NCBI GenBank assembly: GCA_009914755.4
Contig: CP068257.2
Coordinates: 11,232,001-11,296,000 of the forward strand
From: the human T2T-CHM13v2.0 reference genome, Homo sapiens
DNA length: 64,000 nt
Direction: 5' to 3'
Notes under the pieces: model-generated
What the model saw: the letters and a program-made list of their open reading frames with translations, nothing else
What the model was told of the DNA's origin: nothing
The model's database searches: none
In this document: one piece after another, positions 2,803 to 64,000 of the stretch
How positions within the stretch are numbered: position 1 is the first letter of the stretch
How the letters are laid out: each line of letters opens with the position of its first letter
Position numbers and translations under genes: made by a program

Positions 2803-2819
2803 TCCCTTTTCCAACGATA
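2803..2819 (-). promoter_or_regulatory. Degenerate, presumably non-binding CENP-B box remnant, monomer M10; recurs at +1870n
   Basis: 'tcccttttccaacgata'. The CCCG core and the CGAA core are both lost (CCCT, CGAT), so essential contacts are missing. Confidence 0.75.
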
Positions 2820-26863: not shown

Positions 26864-27499
26864 TCTGTGACTTGAATGCAGATATCACCAAGTAGTTTCT
26901 AATAGTGCTTCTGTCTAGATTTTAGATGATGATATTCCCGTTTCCAACGAAATCGTTAGAGCTATCCAAATATCCAGTTACAGTTTCTACCAAAAGGGTG
27001 TTTCCAAATTGCTGCATCAAAAGAAAGGTTCAACTCTGTTAGTTGAGGACACACATCACAAAGAAGTTTGTGAGAATGCTTCTGTCTAGATTTTGTATGA
27101 CGATATTCCCTTTTCCAACGATATCGTTAAAGCAATCTAAATATCAATTTGCAGAATCCACAAAAATAGAGTTTCAAAGCTGCTCTGTAAAAAGAAAGGT
27201 TCCACTCTGTTAGCTGAGTACACACATCACAAACTTGTTTCTGAGAATCCTTCTGTCTCGTTTTTATGGGAAGATATTTACTTTTCCACCGTAGGCATCA
27301 AAGCGCTCCAAATGTCCACATCCAGATACTCCAGAAGGAGTGTTTCAAACCTGCTCTATGAAAGGGAATCTTCAACTCTATGAGTTGAATGCAGACATCA
27401 GAAAGAAATTTCTGAGAATGCTGCTGTCTACCTTTTATTTGAATTCCCGCTTCCAACGAAATCCTCCAAGCTATCCAAATATCCACTTGCATTTTCCAC

Positions 27500-42830: not shown

Positions 42831-45800
42831 TTCCACTCTGTTAGCTGAGTACACACATCACAAACTTGTTTCTCAGAATCCTTCTGTCTCGTTTTTATGG
42901 GAAGATATTTACTTTTTCACCGTAGGCATCAAAGCGCTCCAAATGTCCACATCCAGATACTCCAGAAAGAGTGTTTCAAACCTGCTCTATGAAAGGGAAT
43001 CTTCAACTCTATGAGTTGAATGCAGACATCAGAAAGAAATTTCTGAGAATGCTGCTGTCTACCTTTTATTTGAATTCCCGCTTCCAACGAAATCCTCCAA
43101 GCTATCCAAATATCCACTTGCAGATTCCACAAAAAGAGTGTTTCAAAACTGCTCTCTATCAATGGCAAAGTTCAACTCTGTTAGTTGAGGACACATATCA
43201 CCAACAAGTTTCTGAGAATGCTTCTGTCTATTTTTTATGGGAAGATATTTCCTTTTTCACCGTAGGCGTCAAGGCGATCGAAATGTCCACTTCCACAAAC
43301 TACAAAAAGAGTGTTTCAAACCTGCTCTATGAAAGGCCATGTTCATCTCTATGAGTTGAATGGAAATATCCGAAAAAAATTTCTGGGAATGCTGCTGTCT
43401 AGTTTTTATATGAATTCCCGCTTCCAACGAAATCCTCAAAGCAATCCAAATATCCACTTGCAGAATCCACAAAAAGAGTGTTTCAAAACTGCTCTATCAA
43501 TAGAAAGGTTCAACTCTTTTAGTTGAGTACACACATCACGAACAAGTTTCTGAGAATGCTTCTGTCTGGCTTTTATTGGAAGACGTTTCCTTTTCACCAA
43601 AGGCATCAAAGCGCTCCAAATGTCCACTTCCAGATTCTTCCAAAAGAGTGTTTCAAACGTGCTCGAAGTAAGGGAATGTTCTACTCTGTGACTTGAATGC
43701 AGATATCACCAAGTAGTTTCTAATAGTGCTTCTGTCTAGATTTTAGATGATGATATTCCCGTTTCCAACGAAATCGTTAGAGCTATCCAAATATCCAGTT
43801 ACAGTTTCTACCAAAAGGGTGTTTCCAAATTGCTGCATCAAAAGAAAGGTTCAACTCTGTTAGTTGAGGACACACATCACAAAGAAGTTTGTGAGAATGC
43901 TTCTGTCTAGATTTTGTATGACGATATTCCCTTTTCCAACGATATCGTTAAAGCAATCTAAATATCAATTTGCAGAATCCACAAAAATAGAGTTTCAAAG
44001 CTGCTCTGTAAAAAGAAAGGTTCCACTCTGTTAGCTGAGTACACACATCACAAACTTGTTTCTGAGAATCCTTCTGTCTCGTTTTTATGGGAAGATATTT
44101 ACTTTTCCACCGTAGGCATCAAAGCGCTCCAAATGTCCACATCCAGATACTCCAGAACGAGTGTTTCAAACCTGCTCTATGAAAGGGAATCTTCAACTCT
44201 ATGAGTTGAATGCAGACATCAGAAAGAAATTTCTGAGAATGCTGCTGTCTACCTTTTATTTGAATTCCCGCTTCCAACGAAATCCTCCAAGCTATCCAAA
44301 TATCCACTTGCATTTTCCACAAAAAGAGTGTTTCAAAACTGCTCTATCAATAGAAATGTTCAACTCCTTTGGCTGGGTACACACATCACAAACAAGTTTC
44401 TGAGAATGCTTCTGTCTAGTTTTTATGGGAAGACGTTCCCTTTTTCACCAAAGGCATCAAAGCGCTCCAAATGTCCACTTCCAGACACTACAAAAAGAGT
44501 GTTTCCAACGTGCTCTAAGAAAGCGAATGTTCAACTCTGTGACTTGAATGCAGATATCACAAAGTAGTTTCTGAGAGGGCTTCTGTCTAGATTTTAGATG
44601 ATGATATTCCCGTTTCCAACGAAATCATTAGAGCTATCCAAATATCCACTTACAGTTTCTACAAAAAGAGTGTTTCCAAACTGCTGCATCAAAAGAGAGG
44701 TTCCACTCTGTTAGCTGAGTACACACATCACAAACTTGTTTCTCAGAATCCTTCTGTCTCGTTTTTATGGGAAGATATTTACTTTTTCACCGTAGGCATC
44801 AAAGCGCTCCAAATGTCCACATCCAGATACTCCAGAAAGAGTGTTTCAAACCTGCTCTATGAAAGGGAATCTTCAACTCTATGAGTTGAATGCAGACATC
44901 AGAAAGAAATTTCTGAGAATGCTGCTGTCTACCTTTTATTTGAATTCCCGCTTCCAACGAAATCCTCCAAGCTATCCAAATATCCACTTGCAGATTCCAC
45001 AAAAAGAGTGTTTCAAAACTGCTCTCTATCAATGGCAAAGTTCAACTCTGTTAGTTGAGGACACATATCACCAACAAGTTTCTGAGAATGCTTCTGTCTA
45101 TTTTTTATGGGAAGATATTTCCTTTATCACCGTAGGCGTCAAGGCGATCGAAATGTCCACTTCCACAAACTACAAAAAGAGTGTTTCAAACCTGCTCTAT
45201 GAAAGGCCATGTTCATCTCTATGAGTTGAATGGAAATATCCGAAAGAAATTTCTGGGAATGCTGCTGTCTAGTGTTTATATGAATTCCCGCTTCCAACGA
45301 AATCCTCAAAGCAATCCAAATATCCACTTGCAGAATCCACAAAAAGAGTGTTTCAAAACCGCTCTATCAATAGAAAGGTTCAACTCTTTTAGTTGAGTAC
45401 ACACATCACGAACAAGTTTCTGAGAATGCTTCTGTCTGGCTTTTATTGGAAGACGTTTCCTTTTCACCAAAGGCATCAAAGCGCTCCAAATGTCCACTTC
45501 CAGATTCTTCCAAAAGAGTGTTTCAAACGTGCTCGAAGTAAGGGAATGTTCATCTCTGTGACTTGAATGCAGATATCACCAAGTAGTTTCTAATAGTGCT
45601 TCTGTCTAGATTTTAGATGATGATATTCCCGTTTCCAACGAAATCGTTAGATCTATCCAAATATCCAGTTACAGTTTCTACCAAAAGGGTGTTTCCAAAT
45701 TGCTGCATCAAAAGAAAGGTTCAACTCTGTTAGTTGAGGACACACATCACAAAGAAGTTTGTGAGAATGCTTCTGTCTAGATTTTGTATGATGATATTCC

Positions 45801-48800
45801 CTTTTCCAACGATATCGTTAAAGCAATCTAAATATCAATTTGCAGAATCCACAAAAATAGAGTTTCAAAGCTGCTCTGTAAAAAGAAAGGTTCCACTCTG
45901 TTAGCTGAGTACACACATCACAAACTTGTTTCTGAGAATCCTTCTGTCTCGTTTTTATGGGAAGATATTTACTTTTCCACCGTAGGCATCAAAGCGCTCC
46001 AAATGTCCACATCCAGATACTCCAGAAAGAGTGTTTCAAACCTGCTCTATGAAAGGGAATCTTCAACTCTATGAGTTGAATGCAGACATCAGAAAGAAAT
46101 TTCTGAGAATGCTGCTGTCTACCTTTTATTTGAATTCCCGCTTCCAACGAAATCCTCCAAGCTATCCAAATATCCACTTGCATTTTCCACAAAAAGAGTG
46201 TTTCAAAACTGCTCTATCAATAGAAATGTTCAACTCCTTTGGCTGGGTACACACATCACAAACAAGTTTCTGAGAATGCTTCTGTCTAGTTTTTATGGGA
46301 AGACGTTCCCTTTTTCACCAAAGGCATCAAAGCGCTCCAAATGTCCACTTCCAGACACTACAAAAAGAGTGTTTCCAACGTGCTCTAAGAAAGCGAATGT
46401 TCAACTCTGTGACTTGAATGCAGATATCACAAAGTAGTTTCTGAGAGGGCTTCTGTCTAGATTTTAGATGATGATATTCCCGTTTCCAACGAAATCATTA
46501 GAGCTATCCAAATATCCACTTACAGTTTCTACAAAAAGAGTGTTTCCAAACTGCTGCATCAAAAGAGAGGTTCCACTCTGTTAGCTGAGTACACACATCA
46601 CAAACTTGTTTCTCAGAATCCTTCTGTCTCGTTTTTATGGGAAGATATTTACTTTTTCACCGTAGGCATCAAAGCGCTCCAAATGTCCACATCCAGATAC
46701 TCCAGAAAGAGTGTTTCAAACCTGCTCTATGAAAGGGAATCTTCAACTCTATGAGTTGAATGCAGACATCAGAAAGAAATTTCTGAGAATGCTGCTGTCT
46801 ACCTTTTATTTGAATTCCCGCTTCCAACGAAATCCTCCAAGCTATCCAAATATCCACTTGCAGATTCCACAAAAAGAGTGTTTCAAAACTGCTCTCTATC
46901 AATGGCAAAGTTCAACTCTGTTAGTTGAGGACACATATCACCAACAAGTTTCTGAGAATGCTTCTGTCTATTTTTTATGGGAAGATATTTCCTTTTTCAC
47001 CGTAGGCGTCAAGGCGATCGAAATGTCCACTTCCACAAACTACAAAAAGAGTGTTTCAAACCTGCTCTATGAAAGGCCATGTTCATCTCTATGAGTTGAA
47101 TGGAAATATCCGAAAGAAATTTCTGGGAATGCTGCTGTCTAGTGTTTATACGAATTTCCGCTTCCAACGAAATCCTCAAAGCAATCCAAATATCCACTTG
47201 CAGAATCCACAAAAAGAGTGTTTCAAAACTGCTCTATCAATAGAAAGGTTCAACTCTTTTAGTTGAGTACACACATCACGAACAAGTTTCTGAGAATGCT
47301 TCTGTCTGGCTTTTATTGGAAGACGTTTCCTTTTCACCAAAGGCATCAAAGCGCTCCAAATGTCCACTTCCAGATTCTTCCAAAAGAGTGTTTCAAACGT
47401 GCTCAAAGTAAGGGAATGTTCAACTCTGTGACTTGAATGCAGATATCACCAAGTAGTTTCTAATAGTGCTTCTGTCTACATTTTAGATGATGATATTCCC
47501 GTTTCAAACGAAATCGTTAGAGCTATCCAAATATCCAGTTACAGTTTCTACCAAAAGGGTGTTTCCAAATTGCTGCATCAAAAGAAAGGTTCAACTCTGT
47601 TAGTTGAGGACACACATCACAAAGAAGTTTGTGAGAATGCTTCTGTCTAGATTTTGTATGACGATATTCCCTTTTCCAACGATATCGTTAAAGCAATCTA
47701 AATATCAATTTGCAGAATCCACAAAAATAGAGTTTCAAAGCTGCTCTGTAAAAAGAAAGGTTCCACTCTGTTAGCTGAGTACACACATCACAAACTTGTT
47801 TCTCAGAATCCTTCTGTCTCGTTTTTATGGGAAGATATTTACTTTTCCACCGTAGGCATCAAAGCGCTCCAAATGTCCACATCCAGATACTCCAGAAAGA
47901 GTGTTTCAAACCTGCTCTATGAAAGGGAATGTTCAACTCTATGAGTTGAATGCAGACATCAGAAAGAAATTTCTGAGAATGCTGCTGTCTACCTTTTATT
48001 TGAATTCCCGCTTCCAACGAAATCCTCCAAGCTATCCAAATATCCACTTGCATTTTCCACAAAAAGAGTGTTTCAAAACTGCTCTATCAATAGAAATGTT
48101 CAACTCCTTTGGCTGGGTACACACATCACAAACAAGTTTCTGAGAATGCTTCTGTCTAGTTTTTATGGGAAGACGTTCCCTTTTTCACCAAAGGCATCAA
48201 AGCGCTCCAAATGTCCACTTCAAGACACTACAAAAAGAGTGTTTCCAACGTGCTCTAAGAAAGCGAATGTTCAACTCTGTGACTTGAATGCAGATATCAC
48301 AAAGTAGTTTCTGAGAGGGCTTCTGTCTAGATTTTAGATGATGATATTCCCGTTTCCAACGAAATCATTAGAGCTATCCAAATATCCACTTACAGTTTCT
48401 ACAAAAAGAGTGTTTCCAAACTGCTGCATCAAAAGAGAGGTTCCACTCTGTTAGCTGAGTACACACATCACAAACTTGTTTCTCAGAATCCTTCTGTCTC
48501 GTTTTTATGGGAAGATATTTACTTTTTCACCGTAGGCATCAAAGCGCTCCAAATGTCCACATCCAGATACTCCAGAAAGAGTGTTTCAAACCTGCTCTAT
48601 GAAAGGGAATCTTCAACTCTATGAGTTGAATGCAGACATCAGAAAGAAATTTCTGAGAATGCTGCTGTCTACCTTTTATTTGAATTCCCGCTTCCAACGA
48701 AATCCTCCAAGCTATCCAAATATCCACTTGCAGATTCCACAAAAAGAGTGTTTCAAAACTGCTCTCTATCAATGGCAAAGTTCAACTCTGTTAGTTGAGG

Positions 48801-50310
48801 ACACATATCACCAACAAGTTTCTGAGAATGCTTCTGTCTATTTTTTATGGGAAGATATTTCCTTTTTCACCGTAGGCGTCAAGGCGATCGAAATGTCCAC
48901 TTCCACAAACTACAAAAAGAGTGTTTCAAACCTGCTCTATGAAAGGCCATGTTCATCTCTATGAGTTGAATGGAAATATCCGAAAGAAATTTCTGGGAAT
49001 GCTGCTGTCTAGTGTTTATACGAATTCCCACTTCCAACGAAATCCTCAAAGCAATCCAAATATCCACTTGCAGAATCCACAAAAAGAGTGTTTCAAAACT
49101 GCTCTATCAATAGAAAGGTTCAACTCTTTTAGTTGAGTACACACATCACGAACAAGTTTCTGAGAATGCTTCTGTCTGGCTTTTATTGGAAGACGTTTCC
49201 TTTTCACCAAAGGCATCAAAGCGCTCCAAATGTCCACTTCCAGATTCTTCCAAAAGAGTGTTTCAAACGTGCTCAAAGTAAGGGAATGTTCAACTCTGTG
49301 ACTTGAATGCAGATATCACCAAGTAGTTTCTAATAGTGCTTCTGTCTAGATTTTAGATGATGATATTCCCGTTTCCAACGAAATCGTTAGAGCTATCCAA
49401 ATATCCACTTACAGTTTCTACAAAAAGAGTGTTTCCAAACTGCTGCATCAAAAGAAAGGTTCAACTCTGTTAGTTGAGGACACACATCACAAAGAAGTTT
49501 GTGAGAATGCTTCTGTCTAGATTTTGTATGACGATATTCCCTTTTCCAACGATATCGTTAAAGCAATCTAAATATCAATTTGCAGAATCCACAAAAATAG
49601 TTTCAAAGCTGCTCTGTAAAAAGAAAGGTTCCACTCTGTTAGCTGAGTACACACATCACAAACTTGTTTCTCAGAATCCTTCTGTCTCGTTTTTATGGGA
49701 AGATATTTACTTTTCCACCGTAGGCATCAAAGCGCTCCAAATGTCCACATCCAGATACTCCAGAACGAGTGTTTCAAACCTGCTCTATGAAAGGGAATCT
49801 TCAACTCTATGAGTTGAATGCAGACATCAGAAAGAAATTTCTGAGAATGCTGCTGTCTACCTTTTATTTGAATTCCCGCTTCCAACGAAATCCTCCAAGC
49901 TATCCAAATATCCACTTGCATTTTCCACAAAAAGAGTGTTTCAAAACTGCTCTATCAATAGAAATGTTCAACTCCTTTGGCTGGGTACACACATCACAAA
50001 CAAGTTTCTGAGAATGCTTCTGTCTAGTTTTTATGGGAAGACGTTCCCTTTTTCACCAAAGGCATCAAAGCGCTCCAAATGTCCACTTCCAGACACTACA
50101 AAAAGAGTGTTTCCAACGTGCTCTAAGAAAGCGAATGTTCAACTCTGTGACTTGAATGCAGATATCACAAAGTAGTTTCTGAGAGGGCTTCTGTCTAGAT
50201 TTTAGATGATGATATTCCCGTTTCCAACGAAATCATTAGAGCTATCCAAATATCCACTTACAGTTTCTACAAAAAGAGTGTTTCCAAACTGCTGCATCAA
50301 AAGAGAGGTT
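42831..50310 (-). repeat. 7,480-bp super-repeat block (4 HOR units), copy 2 of 2
   Basis: See copy 1. It also carries a private 2-bp deletion at about 49600 (acaaaaatagtttcaaagc). Confidence 0.75.
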
Positions 50311-53300
50311 CCACTCTGTTAGCTGAGTACACACATCACAAACTTGTTTCTCAGAATCCTTCTGTCTCGTTTTTATGGGAAGATATTTACTTTTTCACCG
50401 TAGGCATCAAAGCGCTCCAAATGTCCACATCCAGATACTCCAGAAAGAGTGTTTCAAACCTGCTCTATGAAAGGGAATCTTCAACTCTATGAGTTGAATG
50501 CAGACATCAGAAAGAAATTTCTGAGAATGCTGCTGTCTACCTTTTATTTGAATTCCCGCTTCCAACGAAATCCTCCAAGCTATCCAAATATCCACTTGCA
50601 GATTCCACAAAAAGAGTGTTTCAAAACTGCTCTCTATCAATGGCAAAGTTCAACTCTGTTAGTTGAGGACACATATCACCAACAAGTTTCTGAGAATGCT
50701 TCTGTCTATTTTTTATGGGAAGATATTTCCTTTTTCACCGTAGGCGTCAAGGCGATCGAAATGTCCACTTCCACAAACTACAAAAAGAGTGTTTCAAACC
50801 TGCTCTATGAAAGGCCATGTTCATCTCTATGAGTTGAATGGAAATATCCGAAAGAAATTTCTGGGAATGCTGCTGTCTAGTGTTTATACGAATTTCCGCT
50901 TCCAACGAAATCCTCAAAGCAATCCAAATATCCACTTGCAGAATCCACAAAAAGAGTGTTTCAAAACTGCTCTATCAATAGAAAGGTTCAACTCTTTTAG
51001 TTGAGTACACACATCACGAACAAGTTTCTGAGAATGCTTCTGTCTGGCTTTTATTGGAAGACGTTTCCTTTTCACCAAAGGCATCAAAGCGCTCCAAATG
51101 TCCACTTCCAGATTCTTCCAAAAGAGTGTTTCAAACGTGCTCAAAGTAAGGGAATGTTCAACTCTGTGACTTGAATGCAGATATCACCAAGTAGTTTCTA
51201 ATAGTGCTTCTGTCTACATTTTAGATGATGATATTCCCGTTTCAAACGAAATCGTTAGAGCTATCCAAATATCCAGTTACAGTTTCTACCAAAAGGGTGT
51301 TTCCAAATTGCTGCATCAAAAGAAAGGTTCAACTCTGTTAGTTGAGGACACACATCACAAAGAAGTTTGTGAGAATGCTTCTGTCTAGATTTTGTATGAC
51401 GATATTCCCTTTTCCAACGATATCGTTAAAGCAATCTAAATATCAATTTGCAGAATCCACAAAAATAGAGTTTCAAAGCTGCTCTGTAAAAAGAAAGGTT
51501 CCACTCTGTTAGCTGAGTACACACATCACAAACTTGTTTCTCAGAATCCTTCTGTCTCGTTTTTATGGGAAGATATTTACTTTTCCACCGTAGGCATCAA
51601 AGCGCTCCAAATGTCCACATCCAGATACTCCAGAAAGAGTGTTTCAAACCTGCTCTATGAAAGGGAATCTTCAACTCTATGAGTTGAATGCAGACATCAG
51701 AAAGAAATTTCTGAGAATGCTGCTGTCTACCTTTTATTTGAATTCCCGCTTCCAACGAAATCCTCCAAGCTATCCAAATATCCACTTGCATTTTCCACAA
51801 AAAGAGTGTTTCAAAACTGCTCTATCAATAGAAATGTTCAACCCCTTTGGCTGGGTACACACATCACAAACAAGTTTCTGAGAATGCTTCTGTCTAGTTT
51901 TTATGGGAAGACGTTCCCTTTTTCACCAAAGGCATCAAAGCGCTCCAAATGTCCACTTCAAGACACTACAAAAAGAGTGTTTCCAACGTGCTCTAAGAAA
52001 GCGAATGTTCAACTCTGTGACTTGAATGCAGATATCACAAAGTAGTTTCTGAGAGGGCTTCTGTCTAGATTTTAGATGATGATATTCCCGTTTCCAACGA
52101 AATCATTAGAGCTATCCAAATATCCACTTACAGTTTCTACAAAAAGAGTGTTTCCAAACTGCTGCATCAAAAGAGAGGTTCCACTCTGTTAGCTGAGTAC
52201 ACACATCACAAACTTGTTTCTCAGAATCCTTCTGTCTCGTTTTTATGGGAAGATATTTACTTTTTCACCGTAGGCATCAAAGCGCTCCAAATGTCCACAT
52301 CCAGATACTCCAGAAAGAGTGTTTCAAACCTGCTCTATGAAAGGGAATCTTCAACTCTATGAGTTGAATGCAGACATCAGAAAGAAATTTCTGAGAATGC
52401 TGCTGTCTACCTTTTATTTGAATTCCCGCTTCCAACGAAATCCTCCAAGCTATCCAAATATCCACTTGCAGATTCCACAAAAAGAGTGTTTCAAAACTGC
52501 TCTCTATCAATGGCAAAGTTCAACTCTGTTAGTTGAGGACACATATCACCAACAAGTTTCTGAGAATGCTTCTGTCTATTTTTTATGGGAAGATATTTCC
52601 TTTTTCACCGTAGGCGTCAAGGCGATCGAAATGTCCACTTCCACAAACTACAAAAAGAGTGTTTCAAACCTGCTCTATGAAAGGCCATGTTCATCTCTAT
52701 GAGTTGAATGGAAATATCCGAAAGAAATTTCTGGGAATGCTGCTGTCTAGTGTTTATACGAATTCCCACTTCCAACGAAATCCTCAAAGCAATCCAAATA
52801 TCCACTTGCAGAATCCACAAAAAGAGTGTTTCAAAACTGCTCTATCAATAGAAAGGTTCAACTCTTTTAGTTGAGTACACACATCACGAACAAGTTTCTG
52901 AGAATGCTTCTGTCTGGCTTTTATTGGAAGACGTTTCCTTTTCACCAAAGGCATCAAAGCGCTCCAAATGTCCACTTCCAGATTCTTCCAAAAGAGTGTT
53001 TCAAACGTGCTCAAAGTAAGGGAATGTTCAACTCTGTGACTTGAATGCAGATATCACCAAGTAGTTTCTAATAGTGCTTCTGTCTAGATTTTAGATGATG
53101 ATATTCCCGTTTCCAACGAAATCGTTAGAGCTATCCAAATATCCACTTACAGTTTCTACAAAAAGAGTGTTTCCAAACTGCTGCATCAAAAGAAAGGTTC
53201 AACTCTGTTAGTTGAGGACACACATCACAAAGAAGTTTGTGAGAATGCTTCTGTCTAGATTTTGTATGACGATATTCCCTTTTCCAACGATATCGTTAAA

Positions 53301-56300
53301 GCAATCTAAATATCAATTTGCAGAATCCACAAAAATAGAGTTTCAAAGCTGCTCTGTAAAAAGAAAGGTTCCACTCTGTTAGCTGAGTACACACATCACA
53401 AACTTGTTTCTGAGAATCCTTCTGTCTCGTTTTTATGGGAAGATATTTACTTTTCCACCGTAGGCATCAAAGCGCTCCAAATGTCCACATCCAGATACTC
53501 CAGAACGAGTGTTTCAAACCTGCTCTATGAAAGGGAATCTTCAACTCTATGAGTTGAATGCAGACATCAGAAAGAAATTTCTGAGAATGCTGCTGTCTAC
53601 CTTTTATTTGAATTCCCGCTTCCAACGAAATCCTCCAAGCTATCCAAATATCCACTTGCATTTTCCACAAAAAGAGTGTTTCAAAACTGCTCTATCAATA
53701 GAAATGTTCAACTCCTTTGGCTGGGTACACACATCACAAACAAGTTTCTGAGAATGCTTCTGTCTAGTTTTTATGGGAAGACGTTCGCTTTTTCACCAAA
53801 GGCATCAAAGCGCTCCAAATGTCCACTTCCAGACACTACAAAAAGAGTGTTTCCAACGTGCTCTAAGAAAGCGAATGTTCAACTCTGTGACTTGAATGCA
53901 GATATCACAAAGTAGTTTCTGAGAGGGCTTCTGTCTAGATTTTAGATGATGATATTCCCGTTTCCAACGAAATCATTAGAGCTATCCAAATATCCACTTA
54001 CAGTTTCTACAAAAAGAGTGTTTCCAAACTGCTGCATCAAAAGAGAGGTTCCACTCTGTTAGCTGAGTACACACATCACAAACTTGTTTCTCAGAATCCT
54101 TCTGTCTCGTTTTTATGGGAAGATATTTACTTTTTCACCGTAGGCATCAAAGCGCTCCAAATGTCCACATCCAGATACTCCAGAAAGAGTGTTTCAAACC
54201 TGCTCTATGAAAGGGAATCTTCAACTCTATGAGTTGAATGCAGACATCAGAAAGAAATTTCTGAGAATGCTGCTGTCTACCTTTTATTTGAATTCCCGCT
54301 TCCAACGAAATCCTCCAAGCTATCCAAATATCCACTTGCAGATTCCACAAAAAGAGTGTTTCAAAACTGCTCTCTATCAATGGCAAAGTTCAACTCTGTT
54401 ACTTGAGGACACATATCACCAACAGGTTTCTGAGAATGCTTCTGTCTATTTTTTATGGGAAGATATTTCCTTTTTCACCGTAGGCGTCAAGGCGATCGAA
54501 ATGTCCACTTCCACAAACTACAAAAAGAGTGTTTCAAACCTGCTCTATGAAAGGCCATGTTCATCTCTATGAGTTGAATGGAAATATCCGAAAGAAATTT
54601 CTGGGAATGCTGCTGTCTAGTTTTTATACGAATTCCCGCTTCCAACGAAATCCTCAAAGCAATCCAAATATCCACTTGCAGAATCCACAAAAAGAGTGTT
54701 TCAAAACTGCTCTATCAATAGAAAGGTTCAACTCTTTTAGTTGAGTACACACATCACGAACAAGTTTCTCAGAATGCTTCCGTCTGGCTTTTATTGGAAG
54801 ACGTTTCCTTTTCACCAAAGGCATCAAAGCGCTCCAAATGTCCACTTCCAGATTCTTCCAAAAGAGTGTTTCAAACGTGCTCAAAGTAAGGGAATGTTCA
54901 ACTCTGTGACTTGAATGCAGATATCACCAAGTAGTTTCTAATAGTGTTTCTGTCTAGATTTTAGATGATGATATTCCCGTTTCCAACGAAATCGTTAGAG
55001 CTATCCAAATATCCACTTACAGTTTCTACAAAAAGGGTGTTTCCAAACTGCTGCATCAAAAGAAAGGTTCAACTCTGTTAGTTGAGGACACACATCACAA
55101 AGAAGTTTGTGAGAATGCTTCTGTCTAGATTTTGTATGACGATATTCCCTTTTCCAACGATATCGTTAAAGCAATCTAAATATCAATTTGCAGAATCCAC
55201 AAAAATAGAGTTTCAAAGCTGCTCTGTAAAAAGAAAGGTTCCACTCTGTTAGCTGAGTACACACATCACAAACTTGTTTCTGAGAATCCTTCTGTCTTGT
55301 TTTTATGGGAAGATATTTACTTTTTCACCGTAGGCATCAAAGGGCTCCAAATGTCCACATCCAGATACTCCAGAAAGAGTGTTTCAAACCTGCTCTATGA
55401 AAGGGAATCTTCAACTCTATGAGTTGAATGCAGACATCAGAAAGAAATTTCTGAGAATGCTGCTGTCTACCTTTTATGTGAATTCCCGCTTCCAATGAAA
55501 TCCTCCAAGCTATCCAAATATCCACCTGCATTTTCCACAAAAAGAGTGTTTCAAAACTGCTCTATCAATAGAAATGTTCAACTCCTTTGGCTGGGTACAC
55601 ACATCACAAACAAGTTTCTGAGAATGCTTCTGTCTAGTTTTTATGGGAAGACATTCCCTTTTTCACCAAAGGCATCAAAGCGCTCCAAATGTCCACTTCC
55701 AGACACTACAAAAAGAGTGTTTCCAACGTGCTCTAAGAAAGCGAATGATCAACTCTGTGACTTGAATGCAGATATCACAAAGTAGTTTCTGAGAGGGCTT
55801 CTGTCTAGATTTTAGACGATGATATTCCCGTTTCCAACGAAATCATTAGAGCTATCCAAATATCCACTTACAGTTTCTACAAAAAGAGTGTTTCCAAACT
55901 GCTGCATCAGAAGAGAGGTTCCACTCTGTTAGCTGAGTACACACATCACAAACTTGTTTCTCAGAATCCTTCTGTCTCGTTTTTATGGGAAGATATTTAC
56001 TTTTTCACCGTAGGCATCAAAGCGCTGCAAATGTCCACATCCAGATACTCCAGAAAGAGTGTTTCAAACCTGCTCTATGAAAGGGAATCTTCAACTCTAT
56101 GAGTTGAATGCAGACATCAGAAAGAAATTTCTGAGAATGCTGCTGTCTACCTTTTATTTGAATTCCCGCTTCCAACGAAATCCTCCAAGCTATCCAAATA
56201 TCCACTTGCTGATTCCACAGAAAGAGTGTTTCAAAACTGCTCTCTATCAATGGCAAAGTTCAACTCTGTTAGTTGAGGACACATATCACCAACAAGTTTC

Positions 56301-57649
56301 TGAGAATGCTTCTGTCTATTTTTTATGGGAAGATATTTCCTTTTTCACCGTAGGCGTCAAGGCGATCGAAATGTCCACTTCCACAAACTACAAAAAGAGT
56401 GTTTCAAACCTGCTCTATGAAAGGCCATGTTCATCTCTATGAGTTGAATGGAAATATCCGAAAGAAATTTCTGGGAATGCTGCTGTCTAGTTTTTATACG
56501 AATTCCCGCTTCCAACGAAATCCTCAAAACAATCCAAATATCCACTTGCAGAATCCACAAAAAGAGTGTTTCAAAACTGCTCTATCAATAGAAAGGTTCA
56601 ACACTTTTAGTTGAGTACACACATCACGAACAAGTTTCTGAGAATGCTTCTGTCTGGCTTTTATTGGAAGACGTTTCCTTTTCACCAAAGGCATCAAAGC
56701 GCTCCAAATGTCCACTTCCAGATTCTTCCAAAAGAGTGTTTCAAACGTGCTCAAAGTAAGGGAATGTTCAACTCTGTGACTTGAATGCAGATATCACCAA
56801 GTAGTTTCTAATAGTGCTTCTGTCTAGATTTTAGATGATGATATTCCCGTTTCCAACGAAATCGTTAGAGCTATCCAAATATCCACTTACAGTTTCTACC
56901 AAAAGGGTGTTTCCAAACTGCTGCATCAAAAGAAAGGTTCAACTCTGTTAGTTGAGGACACACATCACAAAGAAGTTTGTGAGAATGCTTCTGTCTAGAT
57001 TTTGTATGACGATATTCCCTTTTCCAACGATATCGTTAAAGCAATCTAAATATCAATTTGCAGAATCCACAAAAATAGAGTTTCAAACCTGCTCTGTAAA
57101 AAGAAAGGTTCCACTCTGTTAGCTGAGTACACACATCACAAACTTGTTTCTGAGAATCCTTCTGTCTCGTTTTTATGGGAAGATATTTACTTTTTCACCG
57201 TAGGCATCAAAGCGCTCCAAATGTCCACATCCAGATACCCCAGAAAGAGTGTTTCAAACCTGCTCTATGAAAGGGAATCTTCAACTCAATGAGTTGAATG
57301 CAGACATCAGAAAGAACTTTCTGAGAATGCTGCTGTCTACCTTTTATTTGAATTCCCGCTTCCAACGAAATCCTCCAAGCTATCCAAATATCCACTTGCA
57401 TTTTCCACAAAAAGAGTGTTTCAAAACTGCTCTATCAATAGAAATGTTCAACTCCTTTGGCTGGGTACACACATCACAAACAAGTTTCTGAGAATGCTTC
57501 TGTCTAGTTTTTATGGGAAGACATTCCCTTTTTCACCAAAGGCATCAAAGCGCTCCAAATGTCCACTTCCAGACACTACAAAAAGAGGGTTTCCAACGTG
57601 CTCTAAGAAAGCGAATGTTCAACTCTGTGACTTGAATGCAGATATCACA

Positions 57650-60600
57650 AAGTAGTTTCTGAGAGGGCTTCTGTCTGGATTTTAGATGATGATATTCCCG
57701 TTTCCAACGAAATCATTAGAGCTATCCAAATATCCACTTACAGTTTCTACAAAAAGAGTGTTTCCAAACTGCTGCATCAAAAGAGAGGTTCCACTCTGTT
57801 AGCTGAGTACACACATCACAAACTTGTTTCTGAGAATCCTTCTGTCTCGTTTTTATGGGAAGATATTTCCTTTTTCACCGTAGGCATCAAAGCGCTCAAA
57901 ATGTCCACTTCCAGATTCTTCCAAAAGAGTGTTTCAAACGTGCTCAAAGTAAGGGAATGTTCAACTCTGTGACTTGAATGCAGATATCACCAAGTAGTTT
58001 CTAATAGTGCTTCTGTCTACATTTTAGATGATGATATTCCCGTTTCCAATGAAATCGTTAAATCTATCCAAATATCCACTTACAGTTTCTACAAAAAGAG
58101 TGTTTCCAAACTGCTGCATCAAAAGGAAGGTTCAACTCTGTTAGTTGAGGACACACATCACAAAGATGTTTGTGAGAATGCTTCTGTCTAGATTTTGTAT
58201 GACCATATTCCCTTTTCCAACGATATCGTTAAAGAAATCTAAATATCAATTTGCAGAATCCACAAAAATAGAGTTTCAAAGCTGCTCTGTAAAAAGAAAG
58301 GTTCCACTCTGTTAGCTGAGTACACACATCACAAACTTGTTTCTGAGAATCCTTCTGTCTCGTTTTTATGGGAAGATATTTACTTTTTCACCGTAGGCAT
58401 CAAAGCGCTCCAAATGTCCACATCCAGATACTCCAGAAAGAGTGTTTCAAACCTGCTCTATGAAAGGGAATCTTCAACTCTATGAGTTGAATGCAGACAT
58501 CAGAAAGAAATTTCTGAGAATGCTGCTGTCTACCTTTTATTTGAATTCCCGCTTCCAACGAAATCCTCCAAGCTATCCAAATATCCACCTGCATTTTCCA
58601 CAAAAAGAGTGTTTCAAAACTGCTCTATCAATAGAAATGTTCAACTCCTTTGGCTGGGTACACACATCACAAACAAGTTTCTGAGAATGCTTCTGTCTAG
58701 TTTTTATGGGAAGACATTCCCTTTTTCACCAAAGGCATCAAAGCGCTCCAAATGTCCACTTCCAGACACTACAAAAAGAGTGTTTCAAACGTGCTCTAAG
58801 AAAGCGAATGTTCAACTCTGTGACTTGAATGCAGATATCACAAAGTAGTTTCTGAGAGGGCTTCTGTCTAGATTTTAGATGATGATATTCCCGATTACAA
58901 AGAAATCGTTAGAGCTATCCAAATATCCACTTACAGTTTCTACAAAAAGAGTGTTTCCAAACTGCTGCATCAAAAGAAAGATTCAACTCTGTTAGTTGAG
59001 GACACACATCACAAAGAAGTTTGTGAGAATGCTTCTGTCTAGATTTTGTATGACGATATTCCCTTTTCCAACGATATCGTTAAAGCAATCTAAATATCAA
59101 TTTGCAGAATCCACAAAAATAGAGTTTCAAAGCTGCTCTGTAAAAAGAAAGGTTCCGCTCTGTTAGCTGAGTACACACATCACAAACTTGTTTCTGAGAA
59201 TCCTTCTGTCTCGTTTTTATGGGAAGATATTTACTTTTTCACCGTAGGCATCAAAGCGCTCCAAATGTCCACATCCAGATACTACAGAAAGAGTATTTCA
59301 AACCTGCTCTATGAAAGGGAATCTTCAACTCTATGAGTTGAATGCAGACATCAGAAAGAAATTTCTGAGAATGCTGCTGTCTATCTTTTATTTGAATTCC
59401 CGTTTCCAACGAAATCCTCCAAGCTATCCAAATATCCACTTGCAGATTCCACAGAAAGAGTGTTTCAAAACTGCTCTCTATCAATGGCAAAGTTCAACTC
59501 TGTCAGTTGAGGACACATATCTCCAACAAGTTTCTGAGAATGCTTCTGTCTATTTTTTATGGGAAGATATTTCCTTTTTCACCGTAGGCGTCAAGGCGAT
59601 CGAAATGTCCACTTCCACAAACTACAAAAAGAGTGTTTCAAACCTGCTCTATGAAAGGCCATGTTCATCTCTATGAGTTGAATGGAAATATCCGAAAGAA
59701 ATTTCTGGGAATGCTGCTGTCTAGTTTTTATACGAATTCCCGCTTCCAACGAAATCCTCAAAGCAATCCAAATATCCACTTGCAGAATCCACAAAAAGAG
59801 TGTTTCAAAACTGCTCTATCAATAGAAAGGTTCAACTCTTTTAGTTGAGTACACACATCACGAACAAGTTTCTCAGAATGCTTCTGTCTGGCTTTTATTG
59901 GAAGACGTTTCCTTTTCACCAAAGGCATCAAAGCGCTCCAAATGTCCACTTCCAGATTCTTCCAAAAGAGTGTTTCAAACGTGCTCAAAGTAAGGGAATG
60001 TTCAACTCTGTGACTTGAATGCAGATATCACCAAGTAGTTTCTAATAGTGCTTCTGTCTAGATTTTAGATGATGATATTCCCGTTTCCAACGAAATCGTT
60101 AGAGCTATCCAAATATCCACTTACAGTTTCTACAAAAAGAGTGTTTCCAAACTGCTGCATCAAAAGAAAGGTTCAACTCTGTTAGTTGAGGACACACATC
60201 ACAAAGAAGTTTGTGAGAATGCTTTTGTCTAGATTTTGTGTGACCATATTCCCTTTTCCAACGATATCGTTAAAGCAATCTAAATATCAATTTGCAGAAT
60301 CCACAAAAATAGAGTTTCAAAGCTGCTCTTTAAAAAGAAGGGTTCCACTCTGTTAGCTGAGTACACACATCACAAACTTGTTTCTGAGAAACCTTCTGTC
60401 TCGTTTTTATGGGAAGATATTTACTTTTTCACCGTAGGCATCAAAGCGCTCCAAATGTCCACATCCAGATACTCCAGAAAGAGTGTTTCAAACCTGCTCT
60501 ATGAAAGGGAATCTTCAACTCTATGAGTTGAATGCAGACATCAGAAAGAAATTTCTGAGAATGCTGCTGTCTACCTTTTATTTGAATTCCCGCTTCCAAC

Positions 60601-61900
60601 GAAATCCTCCAAGCTATCCAAATATCCACCTGCATTTTCCACAAAAAAAGTGTTTCAAAACTGCTCTATCAATAGAAATGTTCAACTCCTTTGTCTGGGT
60701 ACACACATCACAAACAAGTTTCTGAGAATGCTTCTGTCTAGTTTTTATGGGAAGACATTCCCTTTTTCACCAAAGGCATCAAAGCGCTCCAAATGTCCAC
60801 TTCCAGACACTACAAAAAGAGTGTTTCAAACGTGCTCTAAGAAAGCGAATGTTCAACTCTGTGACTTGAATGCAGATATCACCAAGTAGTTTCTGAGAGG
60901 GCTTCTGTCTAGATTTTAGATGATGATATTCCCGCTTCCAACGAAATCATTAGAGCTATCCAAATATCCACTTACAGTTTCTACAAAAAGAGTGTTTCCA
61001 AACTGCTGCATCAAAAGAATGGTTCAACTCTGTTAGTTGAGGACACACATCACAAAGAAGTTTGTGAGAATGCTTCTGTCTAGATTTTGTATGACGATAT
61101 TCCCTTTTCCAACGATATCGTTAAAGCAATCTAAATATCAATTTGCAGAATCCACAAAAATAGAGTTTCAAAGCTGCTCGGTAAAAAGAAAGGTTCCACT
61201 CTGTTAGCTGAGTACACACATCACAAACTTGTTTCTGAGAATCCTTCTGTCTCGTTTTTATGGGAAGATATTTCCTTTTTCACCGTAGGCATCAAAGCGC
61301 TCAAAATGTCCACTTCCAGATTCTTCCAAAAGAGTGTTTCAAACGTGCTCAAAGTAAGGGAATGTTCAACTCTGTGACTTGAATGCAGATATCACCAAGT
61401 AGTTTCTAATAGTGCTTCTGTCTAGATTTTAGATGATGATATTCCCGTTTCCAACGAAATCGTTACAGCTATCCAAATATCCACTTACAGTTTCTACAAA
61501 AAGAGTGTTTGCAAACTGCTGCATCAAAAGAAAGGTTCAACTCTGTTAGTTGAGGACACACATCACAAAGAAGTTTGTGAGAATGCTTCTGTCTAGATTT
61601 TGTATGACCATATTCCCTTTTCCAACGATATCATTAAAGCAATCTAAATATCCATTTGCAGAATCCACAAAAATAGAGTTTCAAAGCTGCTCTGTAAAAA
61701 GAAAAGTTCCACTCTGTTAGCTGAGTACACACATCACAAACTTGTTTCTGAGAATCCTTCTGTCTCGTTTTTATGGGAAGATATTTACTTTTTCACCGTA
61801 GGCATCAAAGCGCTCCAAATGTCCACATCCAGATACTCCAGAAAGAGTGTTTCAAACCTGCTCTATGAAAGGGAATCTTCAACTCTATGAGTTGAATGCA
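57650..61900 (-). repeat. Zone of structurally variant HORs (7-mer and other truncated or shuffled units, hybrid monomers) replacing the canonical 11-mer
   Basis: The 1870-bp period is lost. The spacing of the M11/M1 landmark (MWKMQ ORF) becomes 1193 bp (57207 to 58400), then about 2041 and 1364 bp. A hybrid monomer with an M4/M6-like start and M8 tail ('caccgtaggcatcaaagcgctcaaaatgtccacttccagattcttcc') occurs at 57876 and again at 61281. M3/M9 hybrid monomers lie at about 58860 and 60890. Confidence 0.8.
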
Positions 61901-64000
61901 GACATCAGAAAGAAATTTCTGAGAATGCTGCTGTCTACCTTTCATTTGAATTCCCGCTTCCAACGAAATCCTCCAGTCTATCCAAATATCCACTTGCAGA
62001 TTCCACAAAAAGAGTGTTTCTAAACTGCTCTATCAATGGCAAGGTTCAACTCTGTCAGTTGAGGATACACATCACAAACAAGTTTCTGAGAATTCTTCAA
62101 TTTTTTTACGGGAAGACATTTCCTTTTTCACCGTAGGCGTCAAAGCGATCGAAATGTCTTCATCCATACAATACAAAAAGTGTGTTTCAAACCTGCTCTA
62201 TGAAAGGGAATGTTCATCTCTATGTGTTGAATGGAAATATCAGAAAGAAATTTCTGAGAATGCTGCTACTTTTTTATGAATTCCCGCTTCCAACGAAATC
62301 CTCAAAGCAATCCAAATATCCACTTGCAGATTCCACAAAAAGAGTGTTTCAAAACTGCTCTATCAAGAGAAAGGTTCAACTCTTTTAGTTGAGTACACAC
62401 ATCACATACAAGTTTCTGAGAAAGCTTCTGTCTACTTTTTAAGGGAAGACATTTCCTTTTTCACCAAATGCATCAAAGCGCTCCAAATGTCCACTTCCAG
62501 ATTCTACAAAAAGAGTGTTTCAAACCTGCTCTAAGTAAGGGAGTTTTCAACTCTGTGACTGGAATGCAGATATCACAAAGTAGTTTCTGAGACTGATTCT
62601 GTGTATACTTTAGATGAAGGTATTCCCGTTTCCAATGATATCGTTAGACCTACCCAAATATCCACTTACAGTTTCTACAAAAAGAGTGTTTCCAAACTGC
62701 TGCATCTAAAGAAAGGTTCAACTCTGTGAGTTGAGGACACACATCACAAAGAAGTTTCTGAGAAAGCTTCTGTCTAGATTTTGTATGAAGATATTCCCTT
62801 TTCCAACGATATCGTTAAATCAACCCAAATATCAATTTGCAGAATCCACAGAAATAGAGTTTCAAAGCTGCTCTGTAAAAAGAAAGGATCCACTCTGTTA
62901 GCTGAGTACACACATCACAAACTTGTTTCTGAGAATACTTCTGTCTAGTTTTTATGGGAAGATATTTACTTTTTCACCGTAGGTATCAAAGCGCTCCAAA
63001 TGTCCACATCCAGATACTACAGAAAGAGTGTTTCAAACCTGCTCTATGAAAGGGAATCTTCAACTCTATGAGTTGAATGCAGACATCAGAAAGTAATTTC
63101 TGAGAATGCTGCTGTCTACCTTTCATTTGAATTCCCGCTTCCAACGAAATCCTCCAAGCTATCCAAATATTCACTTGCAGATTCCACAAAAAGAGTGTTT
63201 CAAAACTACTCTATCAATAGAAAGGTACAACTGTGTCAGTTGAGGACACACATCACAAACAAGTTTCTGAGAATTCTTCAATTTTTTATGGGAAGACATT
63301 TCCTTTTTCACCGTAGGCGTCAAAGCACTCCAAATGTCCACATCCAGATAGTACAGAAAGAGTGTTTCAAACCTGCTCTATTAAAGGGAATGTTCAACTC
63401 TATGAGTTGAATGCAAACATCAGAAAGAAATTTCTGAGAATGCTGCTGTCTACCTTTTATTTGAATTCCCGCTTCCAACGAAAACCTCCAAGCTATCCAA
63501 ATATCCACTTGCAGATTCCACAAAAAGAGTGTTTCAAAACTGCTCTATCAATAGAAATGTTCAACTCCTTTCGCTGGGTACACACATCACAAACAAGTTT
63601 CTGAGAAAGCTTCTGTCTAGTTTTTATGGGAAGACATTTCCTTTTTCACCAAAGGCATCAAAGAGCTCCAAATGTCCACTTCCAGATACTACAAAAAGAG
63701 TGTTTCAAAAGTGCTCTAAGAAAGCGAATGTTCAACTCTGTGACTTGAATGCAGATATCACAAAGTAGTTTCTGAGAGTGCTTCTGTCTAGTTTTTACAT
63801 GATGATATTCCCGTTTCCAACGAAATCATCAGAGCTATCCAAATATCCACTTACAGTTTCTACAAAAAGAGTGTTTCCAAACTGCTGCATCAAAAGAGAG
63901 GTTCCACTCTGTTAGCTGAGTACACACATCACAAACTTGTTTCTGAGAATCCTTCTGTCTAGCTTTTATGGGAAGATATTTTCTTTTTCACCGTAGGCAT
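61900..64000 (-). repeat. Diverged alpha-satellite HOR copies (same monomer order but roughly 8–12% substitutions and small indels)
   Basis: For example, 61961–62300 shows many substitutions relative to the canonical M5–M8. There is a 5-bp deletion at about 62265 (gctgctacttttttatgaattcc). Boxes are destroyed, for example 'tcccgtttccaatgata' at about 62625. Confidence 0.8.

What the first reader, a model, noticed from the sequence alone, without database searches (positions are those of the whole stretch)
57650..61900. Breakdown of the canonical HOR into variant units with a recurrent hybrid monomer
At about 57.65 kb the 1870-bp periodicity stops. One unit is a 7-mer (M1 M2 M3 hybrid M9 M10 M11; 1193 bp). 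The monomer joining M3 to M9 is a mosaic: an M4/M6-type 5' half ('gatatttcctttttcaccgtaggcatcaaagcgctc') fused, within the shared 'aaatgtccac' stretch, to the M8 3' half ('ttccagattcttccaaaag...gtgacttgaatgcag'). The identical hybrid, including a private 'gctcaaaatg' SNV, recurs 3405 bp later (57876–57915 and 61281–61320), so the rearranged unit has itself been duplicated. Additional M3/M9 chimeric monomers lie at about 58860–59030 and about 60890–61050, and an M11 to M5 junction at about 59340. These are unequal-crossover products between internally homologous monomers and mark the boundary of the homogeneous domain.
Basis: seen in the sequence. Interest (0 to 1): 0.6.

Follow-up and report, generated by a model that had tools for sequence, protein, structure and literature searches.

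The report
Variant repeat units at chr21 centromere edge
The last few kilobases of a very uniform human chromosome-21-type centromeric satellite array contain shortened and rearranged repeat units joined through hybrid monomers, a real but ordinary feature whose unit types are already listed in the published complete-genome centromere annotation.

Summary
The window is alpha satellite throughout. It holds a canonical 11-monomer, 1870-bp higher-order repeat (HOR) as far as 57316.

Four variant units follow:
- 57317-58509: M1 M2 M3 H M9 M10 M11 (1193 bp)
- 58510-59360: M1 M2 X M10 M11 (851 bp)
- 59361-60550: M5-M11 (1190 bp)
- 60551-61914: M1 M2 X M10 H M9 M10 M11 (1364 bp)

H is an M4/M11-to-M8 hybrid. 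Its two copies (57826-57996 and 61231-61401) are 171/171 identical and carry the only two GCTCAAAATG sites in the window. X is an M3-to-M9 hybrid (58848-59018 and 60889-61059). From 61915 divergence from the consensus jumps to about 7%.

The array is not D8Z2. It matches the published chromosome 21 consensus of S2C13/21H1L (D21Z1) and the Cen21 PCR primers. In the published T2T numbering the units read 1-3_8-11, 1-2_9-11, 1-7/1-6_11, 1-2_9-11 and 1-3. These types and their counts appear in the CHM13 chr21 structural-variant table. The published annotation also places a sister HOR and older satellite layers at that flank.

The most likely origin is out-of-register homologous exchange between paralogous monomers, followed by local duplication. 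Sequence alone cannot say which recombination pathway acted. Novelty: already known. Interest: low.

The parts
1..57316 (+). Homogeneous array of canonical 11-monomer HOR units (1870 bp; a few 1867/1868-bp haplotype variants). It is the chr21-type S2C13/21H1L (D21Z1).
   Evidence: TRF period 171 across 3-63987. Lag-1870 identity 0.98-1.0. First 7 units identical. Decomposition. Match to the published cen21 consensus. Cen21 primers.
57317..58509 (+). 7-monomer variant unit M1 M2 M3 H M9 M10 M11, 1193 bp (T2T-style name 1-3_8-11). It is the canonical unit minus 677 bp.
57826..57996 (+). Hybrid monomer H, copy 1. The 5' part is M4/M11 and the 3' part is M8. The crossover interval is 57882-57908. 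Private bases are 57869 C and 57898 A.
   Evidence: 3 differences as a hybrid versus 10 to the best single monomer. Alignment.
58510..59360 (+). 5-monomer variant unit M1 M2 X M10 M11, 851 bp (T2T-style 1-2_9-11). It is the canonical unit minus 1019 bp.
58848..59018 (+). Hybrid monomer X, copy 1 (M3 5' part, M9 3' part). The breakpoint interval is 58860-58907 against local parents. Its CENP-B box is destroyed by clustered substitutions at 58894, 58897 and 58901.
59361..60550 (+). 7-monomer unit M5-M11, 1190 bp (T2T-style 1-7 / 1-6_11), entered through an M11->M5 junction. The exchange interval between M11|M1 and M4|M5 is about 59197-59439. It has the same architecture as the 7-mer that dominates cen13.
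60551..61914 (+). 8-monomer unit M1 M2 X M10 H M9 M10 M11, 1364 bp (T2T-style 1-2_9-11 followed by 1-3). The left half matches the 5-mer and the right half matches the 7-mer. The M10->H junction interval is about 61191-61273.
60889..61059 (+). Hybrid monomer X, copy 2. The breakpoint interval is 60950-61018 against local parents. It has 6 differences from copy 1.
61231..61401 (+). Hybrid monomer H, copy 2, identical to copy 1. The perfect identity extends over 234 bp (61191-61424, matching 57786-58019).
61915..63429 (+). Diverged units (6-20 differences per monomer, with further mosaics). The order is compatible with the sister HOR S2C13/21H1-B that flanks the live array in the published annotation.
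   Evidence: Annotation. The assignment is inferred, not tested against an H1-B sequence.

Best explanation
This is the distal edge of a human chromosome-21-type D21Z1 (S2C13/21H1L, alpha21-I) alpha-satellite array. The canonical 11-mer contains internal paralogy:
- M4 and M11 differ by 2 nt.
- M2 and M8 are 92% identical.
- M3 and M9 are 91% identical.
- M1, M5 and M7 are 89-91% identical to each other.
- The 3' end of M3 equals the 3' end of M10.

Out-of-register but in-phase homologous exchange between these paralogues, offset by 4, 6 or 7 monomers, removed whole numbers of monomers. It left hybrid monomers (H, X) or seamless junctions (M11->M5, M10->H). At least one later local duplication or recombination placed H, and probably X, at a second site. 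It also produced the 8-mer, which is the left half of the 5-mer joined to the right half of the 7-mer.

Shown: the identity of the array, the unit strings, the junctions and their homology tracts, the duplication of H, and the divergence step at 61.9 kb.

Inferred: that the exchanges were unequal sister-chromatid or homologue crossovers, the order of events, and that the window is the right (q-side) flank annotated in T2T-CHM13.
For: Structure:
- Decomposition and hybrid test, with no hybrids among the 336 upstream monomers.
- H copies identical, with a private SNV found only at those two sites.
- Unit lengths of 1193, 851, 1190 and 1364 bp are whole numbers of monomers.
- Junctions fall inside identity tracts.
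- Monomers flanking the junctions differ by only 0-9 nt from the canonical monomers, so the variants derive from the modern HOR.

Identity:
- The Cen21 primers match in convergent orientation. The forward primer matches exactly 60 times and the reverse primer 10 times exactly, or 33 times within one mismatch.
- At the sites that separate the published cen21 and cen13 consensuses, the window takes the cen21 state at almost all substitution and indel sites.
- The two near-identical monomers differ by 3 nt in T2T phase, the same figure HORmon gives for cen13.

Prior knowledge:
- The CHM13 chr21 StV table lists 1-3_8-11 x1, 1-2_9-11 x2, 1-3 x2, 1-6_11 x2 and 1-7 x2. The window holds 1-3_8-11 x1, 1-2_9-11 x2, 1-3 x1 and 1-7/1-6_11 x2.
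- The published annotation has the live array followed by S2C13/21H1-B, more H1L, dHOR and monomeric layers.
- The published text calls this right flank a remnant of the ancestral array shared by cen13 and cen21.
- Out-of-register deletions creating hybrid monomers are described as the general origin of StV HORs.
Against: - No assembly was available to align against. The chromosome and locus assignment therefore rests on an OCR-degraded published consensus, a primer pair, and matching variant names and counts.
- The window could come from a genome other than CHM13.
- The two X copies differ at a diagnostic site (position 61), which gives them non-overlapping breakpoint intervals. They may be two events rather than one duplicated event.
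- The H copies are perfectly identical over 234 bp, while the rest of the duplicated block differs at 11 of 490 bp (p about 0.014). A simple single duplication does not predict this.
- Reciprocal products of crossovers are not visible.
Confidence: 0.88

Rival explanations
1. The structures are the same, but they were produced by non-crossover pathways. Candidates are intrachromatid single-strand annealing after a break, replication slippage or fork template switching, or break-induced replication. These would replace reciprocal unequal crossing-over. The spread of H and X would then be by gene conversion or saltatory amplification.
For: - All junctions are deletions relative to the canonical unit, and no reciprocal insertion products are seen in the window.
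- The perfect 234-bp identity around H against about 2.2% divergence next to it suggests a recent conversion-like homogenisation.
- Position 57869 inside the M11-type half of H carries the M8/M6/M2 state, as patchy heteroduplex repair would give.
- Logsdon et al. [quoted passage not shown]
Against: - Sequence cannot discriminate between these pathways.
- The 8-mer is exactly what a crossover between a 5-mer and a 7-mer would give.
- The p-value for the identity tract is only about 0.014, from one comparison.
Confidence: 0.35
2. The variant units are assembly artefacts, meaning mis-joins or collapses within a near-identical array.
For: The array is extremely homogeneous. The first seven units are identical, which is the setting in which assemblers err. 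No reads were available to check.
Against: - The junctions are clean, in-phase hybrids with private SNVs shared between copies.
- The surrounding units carry many private SNVs that would anchor reads.
- The same rare variant types and counts are listed for the validated CHM13 chr21 array.
- The published text says the flank's features are shared with cen13.
Confidence: 0.03
3. The short units are relics of ancestral shorter HORs (4-, 5- or 7-mers) from which the 11-mer was built, rather than derivatives of the 11-mer.
For: - The canonical 11-mer is visibly a 7+4 construction. M3 is itself an old M9/M10 hybrid and M4 is nearly identical to M11.
- The flank is described as a remnant of the ancestral array.
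- The diverged unit at 61915-63095 has a similar M2-X'-M10 arrangement.
Against: - Monomers inside the variant units differ from modern canonical monomers by only 0-9 nt. True paralogues differ by 14-30 nt.
- The apparent X' hybrid disappears when flank-type M9 alleles are considered.
Confidence: 0.05
4. The window is the homologous flank of chromosome 13 (D13Z1) rather than chromosome 21.
For: - cen13 and cen21 share the HOR, and their right flanks share 'identical features'.
- The chr13 StV list also has 1-2_9-11 x2 and 1-6_11 x6.
- Flank units carry several cen13-type alleles.
Against: - The 30 canonical units carry the cen21 state at almost all discriminating sites.
- There is no run of the 7-mer that makes up half of cen13.
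- 1-3_8-11 and 1-3 are listed for chr21 only.
Confidence: 0.05

Closest known systems
Structural-variant HORs (StVs) of S2C13/21H1L on T2T-CHM13 chr21, from Altemose et al., 'Complete genomic and epigenetic maps of human centromeres', Table S11 and the cenSat annotation
   Same: - Same HOR family and chr21 haplotype consensus.
- Same variant unit types: 1-3_8-11, 1-2_9-11, 1-3 and 1-6_11/1-7.
- Compatible copy numbers.
- Same position next to the sister HOR at the array flank.
   Different: Coordinates could not be matched directly, so the window may be from another individual. The published names use a monomer phase shifted by about 90 nt. In that phase the H and X junctions fall close enough to monomer boundaries that no hybrid monomer is named.
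cen13 7-mer StV (S2C13/21H1L.1-7), 691 copies in CHM13
   Same: Unit 59361-60550 (M5-M11 preceded by M11) has the same architecture and the same M11/M4-type junction.
   Different: Here it is a single unit, plus one diverged copy, on a chr21-type background with mixed cen13/cen21 alleles. It is not an expanded block.
D8Z2 (chromosome 8) 11-mer array with 4-, 7- and 8-mer derivatives and an A/E hybrid monomer (Logsdon et al. 2021)
   Same: The phenomenon is the same: an 11-mer HOR, shorter derivatives created by deletion through a hybrid monomer, and layered array organisation.
   Different: The sequence family is different. The window monomers are at most 79% identical to D8Z2 monomers A-K. 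In D8Z2 the variants make up most of the array, whereas here they are a few flank units.
Hybrid monomers in the HORmon / CentromereArchitect framework
   Same: H and X fit the definition of a hybrid monomer, a concatenate of two canonical monomers that yields auxiliary or partial HORs. The cen13 junction monomer pair differing by 3 nt corresponds to M4/M11.
   Different: HORmon's published text, as held in the library, gives no list of chr21 hybrids to compare with. Its supplements were not available.

Membership tests
Alpha satellite, S2C13/21H1L (D21Z1/D13Z1, alpha21-I) higher-order repeat | Tandem monomers of about 171 bp organised in an 11-monomer unit of about 1.87 kb | tested here: met
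   TRF period 171 over the whole window. Best self-identity lag 1870. Eleven monomers of 167-171 bp.
Alpha satellite, S2C13/21H1L (D21Z1/D13Z1, alpha21-I) higher-order repeat | Sequence match to the published HOR consensus, chr21 haplotype | tested here: met
   There are 26 differences over 1870 bp to the OCR-derived cen21 consensus, many of them homopolymer OCR losses, against 44 to cen13. The window takes the cen21 state at almost all substitution and indel sites that separate the two.
Alpha satellite, S2C13/21H1L (D21Z1/D13Z1, alpha21-I) higher-order repeat | Amplifiable by the standard chromosome 21 alphoid primer pair | tested here: met
   The forward primer matches exactly 60 times. The reverse primer matches exactly 10 times, and 33 times within one mismatch. 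The primers are convergent across M1-M2.
Alpha satellite, S2C13/21H1L (D21Z1/D13Z1, alpha21-I) higher-order repeat | Two nearly identical monomers four positions apart (HORmon G.0/G.1, 3 nt apart) | tested here: met
HORmon text.
Alpha satellite, S2C13/21H1L (D21Z1/D13Z1, alpha21-I) higher-order repeat | CENP-B boxes in alternate monomers (dimeric SF2 organisation) | tested here: met
   There are 158 core-motif boxes, all in M1, M3, M5, M7 and M9. The formal SF2 assignment is taken from the literature and was not tested against D1/D2 consensus monomers.
Structural-variant HOR generated by out-of-register homologous exchange | Non-canonical monomer adjacency with unit length changed by a whole number of monomers | tested here: met
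Structural-variant HOR generated by out-of-register homologous exchange | Junction in phase and inside a tract identical in both parental monomers | tested here: met
   H interval is 27 bp. X intervals are 48 and 69 bp. M11->M5 is about 243 bp. M10->H is about 80 bp.
Structural-variant HOR generated by out-of-register homologous exchange | Reciprocal crossover products, or direct observation of the exchange | not testable with these tools
   This needs pedigrees, population haplotypes or sister-chromatid resolved data.
Physical location at the right flank of the T2T-CHM13 chr21 live array | Direct alignment to the assembly | not testable with these tools
   No human assembly is among the searchable collections. 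The location is inferred from variant names and counts and from the annotated order of layers.
D8Z2 (chromosome 8 alpha satellite) | Near-identity to D8Z2 monomers A-K | tested here: not met
   Maximum identity is 79%.
S2C13/21H1-B sister HOR (for 61915-64000) | 13-mer order 1-2-3-4-5-6-7-8-9-10-11-8-7 and match to the H1-B sequence | tested here: inconclusive
   The order read in T2T phase (...9 10 7 6/4' 7 | 1-7) is compatible with it. No H1-B reference sequence was available, and only about 2 kb is in the window.

The most novel reading that the evidence does not exclude
The flank variants may not be a static fossil. The perfect 234-bp identity around the two H copies sits next to about 2% divergence. 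The two X copies have non-overlapping breakpoint intervals. Together these could mean that specific paralogous monomer pairs at the array edge (M4/11-M8, M3-M9) are recurrent exchange or conversion hotspots that are still active. If so, the same hybrid junctions would arise or homogenise repeatedly in different human haplotypes and on chr13.
Probability: 0.1. Interest if true: 0.35.

Novelty: already known. Interest (0 to 1): 0.15.

Why it matters
It matters little beyond documentation. Such variant units are useful as unique markers for anchoring reads and for tracing centromere haplotypes. They also help reconstruct how the chr13 and chr21 arrays diverged from a shared ancestral array. However, the phenomenon, the HOR family and these particular variant types are already catalogued for the complete human genome.

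Tried and rejected
1. Chromosome 8 D8Z2 was my first guess, because it is an 11-mer with 4-, 7- and 8-mer derivatives and a hybrid monomer. I rejected it because the published monomers A-K are at most 79% identical to the window monomers.

2. I tried k-mer typing of cen13 versus cen21 alleles per unit. It is confounded by paralogous monomers that share contexts, so I used it only qualitatively.

3. The breakpoint of X at monomer position 115-130 was an artefact of using the window consensus as the parent. Flank-type M9 copies already carry the M3-like alleles at positions 83-115. Re-analysis with local parents widened and split the intervals. For the same reason the apparent third X-like hybrid at 62583-62753 is not reliable.

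4. An 'M6 contribution' to H reduces to one base once the local M11 variant is used as the parent.

5. Several papers or supplements were not held: the Science version of Altemose et al., Warburton et al. 1993 on recombination sites in HOR variants, and the HORmon supplements. I recall that Warburton et al. found recombination sites in HOR variants to be in register and clustered within the monomer. That recollection was not checked.

6. The protein, RNA, phage, plasmid and metagenome tools were not used, because the window is pure satellite.
Full report
**What the window is**

Tandem Repeats Finder reports a single 171-bp array from 3 to 63987. The best self-identity lag is 1870 bp. The first seven 1870-bp units are base-for-base identical.

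The unit has strong internal paralogy:
- M4 and M11 differ by 2 nt.
- M2 and M8 are 92% identical.
- M3 and M9 are 91% identical.
- M1, M5 and M7 are 89-91% identical to each other.
- M3 carries the 3' end of M10.

The canonical 11-mer is therefore itself an old 7+4 construction. CENP-B box core motifs occur 158 times, all in M1, M3, M5, M7 and M9.

**Check of the observation**

I assigned all 376 monomers to their nearest canonical monomer and tested each one as a two-parent hybrid. Up to 57825 the order is canonical. The only exceptions are five M11 slots that score as M4, and M4 and M11 differ by 2 nt. None of the 336 monomers before 57.8 kb is flagged as a hybrid.

From 57317 the string reads:
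- 57317-58509: M1 M2 M3 H M9 M10 M11 (1193 bp)
- 58510-59360: M1 M2 X M10 M11 (851 bp)
- 59361-60550: M5 M6 M7 M8 M9 M10 M11 (1190 bp)
- 60551-61914: M1 M2 X M10 H M9 M10 M11 (1364 bp)

The next 1.5 kb has monomers that differ from canonical ones at 6-20 positions and include further mosaics. After that come M1 M2 M3 with 4-7 differences each.

H (57826-57996 and 61231-61401):
- It has an M4/M11-type 5' part and an M8 3' part.
- As a hybrid it has 3 differences. To the best single monomer it has 10.
- Its two copies are identical at 171/171 positions.
- GCTCAAAATG occurs in the window only at 57894 and 61299.

X (58848-59018 and 60889-61059):
- It has an M3 5' part and an M9 3' part.
- Its two copies differ at 6 positions.

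The M11->M5 junction lies at 59360/59361.

Every statement in the finding is therefore correct. Three refinements apply:
- Canonical order ends inside H, in the 27-bp identity tract 57882-57908, not at 57650.
- The 'M6-like' look of the H 5' half shrinks to one base (57869). The other base is the normal local variant of M11.

**Breakpoints with local parents**

The M9 copies near the flank already carry M3-like alleles at positions 83-115. The first breakpoint estimate for X was therefore too narrow. Using neighbouring M3 and M9 copies as parents changes the picture:
- X1 is M3-type at positions 7, 9 and 12 and M9-type from position 61. Its interval is 58860-58907.
- X2 is still M3-type at position 61. 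Its interval is 60950-61018.

The two X copies may be two separate events. Alternatively they are one event followed by a short change in X1. Supporting the second reading, position 61 sits next to three private substitutions (58894, 58897, 58901) that destroy the X1 CENP-B box.

The other junctions have these intervals:
- M11->M5 can lie anywhere in about 59197-59439, because M11|M1 and M4|M5 are identical there.
- M10->H can lie in about 61191-61273, because M10 and M3 share their 3' ends and H begins like M11.

**Relationship between the duplicated blocks**

At lag 3405 the sequence is perfectly identical from 57786 to 58019, a run of 234 bp. It then differs at 11 positions in the next 490 bp. 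If the differences were spread evenly, the chance that none falls in the first 234 bp is about 0.014.

Most differences between flank copies are singletons within the window. The 8-mer is exactly the left half of the 5-mer joined to the right half of the 7-mer.

**Identity of the array**

I first suspected chromosome 8. The D8Z2 monomers printed by Logsdon et al. 2021 are at most 79% identical to the window monomers, so I rejected this.

Three lines of evidence point to chromosome 21:
- The standard Cen21 primer pair (PMC4694756, PMC7679138) matches in convergent orientation across M1-M2. The forward primer matches exactly 60 times. The reverse primer matches exactly 10 times, and 33 times within one mismatch.
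- The supplement of Altemose et al. (bioRxiv 10.1101/2021.07.12.452052) prints consensus sequences of the cen21 and cen13 haplotypes of S2C13/21H1L. The window consensus differs from the cen21 consensus at 26 positions, many of them OCR losses in A-runs. It differs from the cen13 consensus at 44 positions. It takes the cen21 state at almost all substitution and indel sites that separate the two.
- HORmon reports that the cen13 11-mer contains two monomers differing by 3 nt, four positions apart. In the published monomer phase, M4 and M11 give exactly a 3-nt difference.

**Translation into published nomenclature**

The published 7-mer '1-7' aligns to the M4(3')...M11(5') part of the consensus. 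It follows that T2T numbering runs opposite to the window and is shifted by about 90 nt. So .11 = [M11|M1].10 = [M1|M2], and so on down to .1 = [M10|M11].

I re-decomposed the window in that phase. Read in T2T order, the flank is:
- a diverged 1-7
- 1-3
- 1-2_9-11
- 1-7/1-6_11
- 1-2_9-11
- 1-3_8-11
- then 1-11 repeated

No hybrid monomer is needed in this phase, because the junctions fall near monomer boundaries.

Table S11 of the same paper lists these types for CHM13 chr21: 1-3_8-11 x1, 1-2_9-11 x2, 1-3 x2, 1-6_11 x2 and 1-7 x2. The chr13 list lacks 1-3_8-11 and 1-3.

The cenSat table has the chr21 live array ending at 12,031,015. It is followed by 3.9 kb of the sister HOR S2C13/21H1-B, then more H1L, divergent HORs and monomeric satellite. 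The supplement states that the right flanks of cen13 and cen21 share identical features and probably represent the remnant of the ancestral array.

The divergence profile of the window fits this description:
- 0% for 0-14 kb
- 0.2-1.2% up to 56 kb
- 1.6-3% at 56-62 kb
- 6.7% at 62-64 kb

Flank units also carry a mixture of cen21-type and cen13-type alleles. I could not align to any assembly, so the exact locus is an inference.

**Mechanism**

All junctions are in phase and lie inside tracts identical in both parental monomers. All length changes are whole numbers of monomers. The monomers on either side of each junction are nearly identical to the modern canonical monomers. These facts point to homologous exchange between paralogous monomers in misaligned register, with offsets of 4, 6 and 7 monomers. 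One or more later exchanges then copied H and produced the 8-mer.

Altemose et al. give the same account for structural-variant HORs in general. The D8Z2 array shows the same thing.

Sequence cannot say whether the exchanges were reciprocal unequal crossovers, single-strand annealing, template switching, or conversion-like events. Two details hint that conversion or patchy repair took part: the perfect identity tract around H, and the isolated M8-type base at 57869. Logsdon et al. 2024 also argue that simple unequal crossover does not explain how new HOR variants spread.

**Rivals considered**

- An assembly artefact is unlikely, given the private SNVs and the agreement with a validated assembly's variant list.
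- Relics of ancestral short HORs are unlikely, because the monomers are of the modern type.
- Chromosome 13 is unlikely, given the consensus typing and the absence of the cen13 7-mer block.

**CENP-A**

The published coarse values place CENP-A on CHM13 chr21 at about 11.7-11.9 Mb. That is about 0.1 Mb from the right edge of the array. If the window is that flank, it does not mark the end of the CENP-A domain.

**Verdict**

The feature is an ordinary, already catalogued set of structural-variant HOR units at the edge of the chr21-type alpha-satellite array.

Noticed in passing
window 1-13090: Seven consecutive 1870-bp HOR units are identical at every base. Divergence from this consensus then rises stepwise along the window: 0%, then 0.2-1.2%, then 1.6-3%, then 6.7%.
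   Followed up: partly
window 57786-58019 vs 61191-61424: A perfect 234-bp identity surrounds the two H copies, while the rest of the duplicated block differs at 11 of 490 bp. The chance of this under even spread is about 0.014. It may reflect recent conversion between the two H sites.
   Followed up: partly
window 58894-58908: Four changes within 15 bp in X copy 1, relative to X copy 2, turn the CENP-B box CCCGTTTCCAACGAA into CCCGATTACAAAGAA. One of the changed sites (58908) is the M3/M9 diagnostic position. This looks like a multi-nucleotide event or a short conversion patch.
   Followed up: partly
window 40318-40488, 42188-42358, 47798-47968, 49666-49836, 51536-51706: In five otherwise canonical units, the M11 slot is occupied by a monomer that scores as M4 or ties with it. 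The 2-nt distinction between M4 and M11 is therefore blurred in some HOR haplotypes.
   Followed up: no
window 20272-20439, 25879-26046 (M3) and 28765-28932, 30632-30799, 32499-32666 (M9); 49497-49665 (M10): These monomers are shortened by 3 bp or 2 bp, which gives 1867- and 1868-bp HOR units. They define local HOR haplotypes inside the 'homogeneous' domain.
   Followed up: no
window consensus monomers M3, M9, M10, M4, M11: The canonical 11-mer carries an old hybrid of its own: M3 is an M9-like 5' part joined to an M10 3' end. It also carries a near-duplicate pair (M4 and M11). It is therefore a 7+4 construction, and this paralogy is what the later flank rearrangements exploit.
   Followed up: yes
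window 61915-63429: This is a diverged stretch with a 162-bp monomer (62250-62411, 5-bp deletion) and further mosaics (63096-63262 M5/M9-like, 63263-63429 M6/M4-like). The order is compatible with the sister HOR S2C13/21H1-B, but no reference sequence was available to test that.
   Followed up: partly
window 57997-58167: The M9 copy in the 7-mer has lost its CENP-B box (CGAA changed to TGAA at position 54, a CpG transition) and carries several private SNVs. Box density in 57317-61914 is 10 per 27 monomers, against 5 per 11 in canonical units.
   Followed up: no
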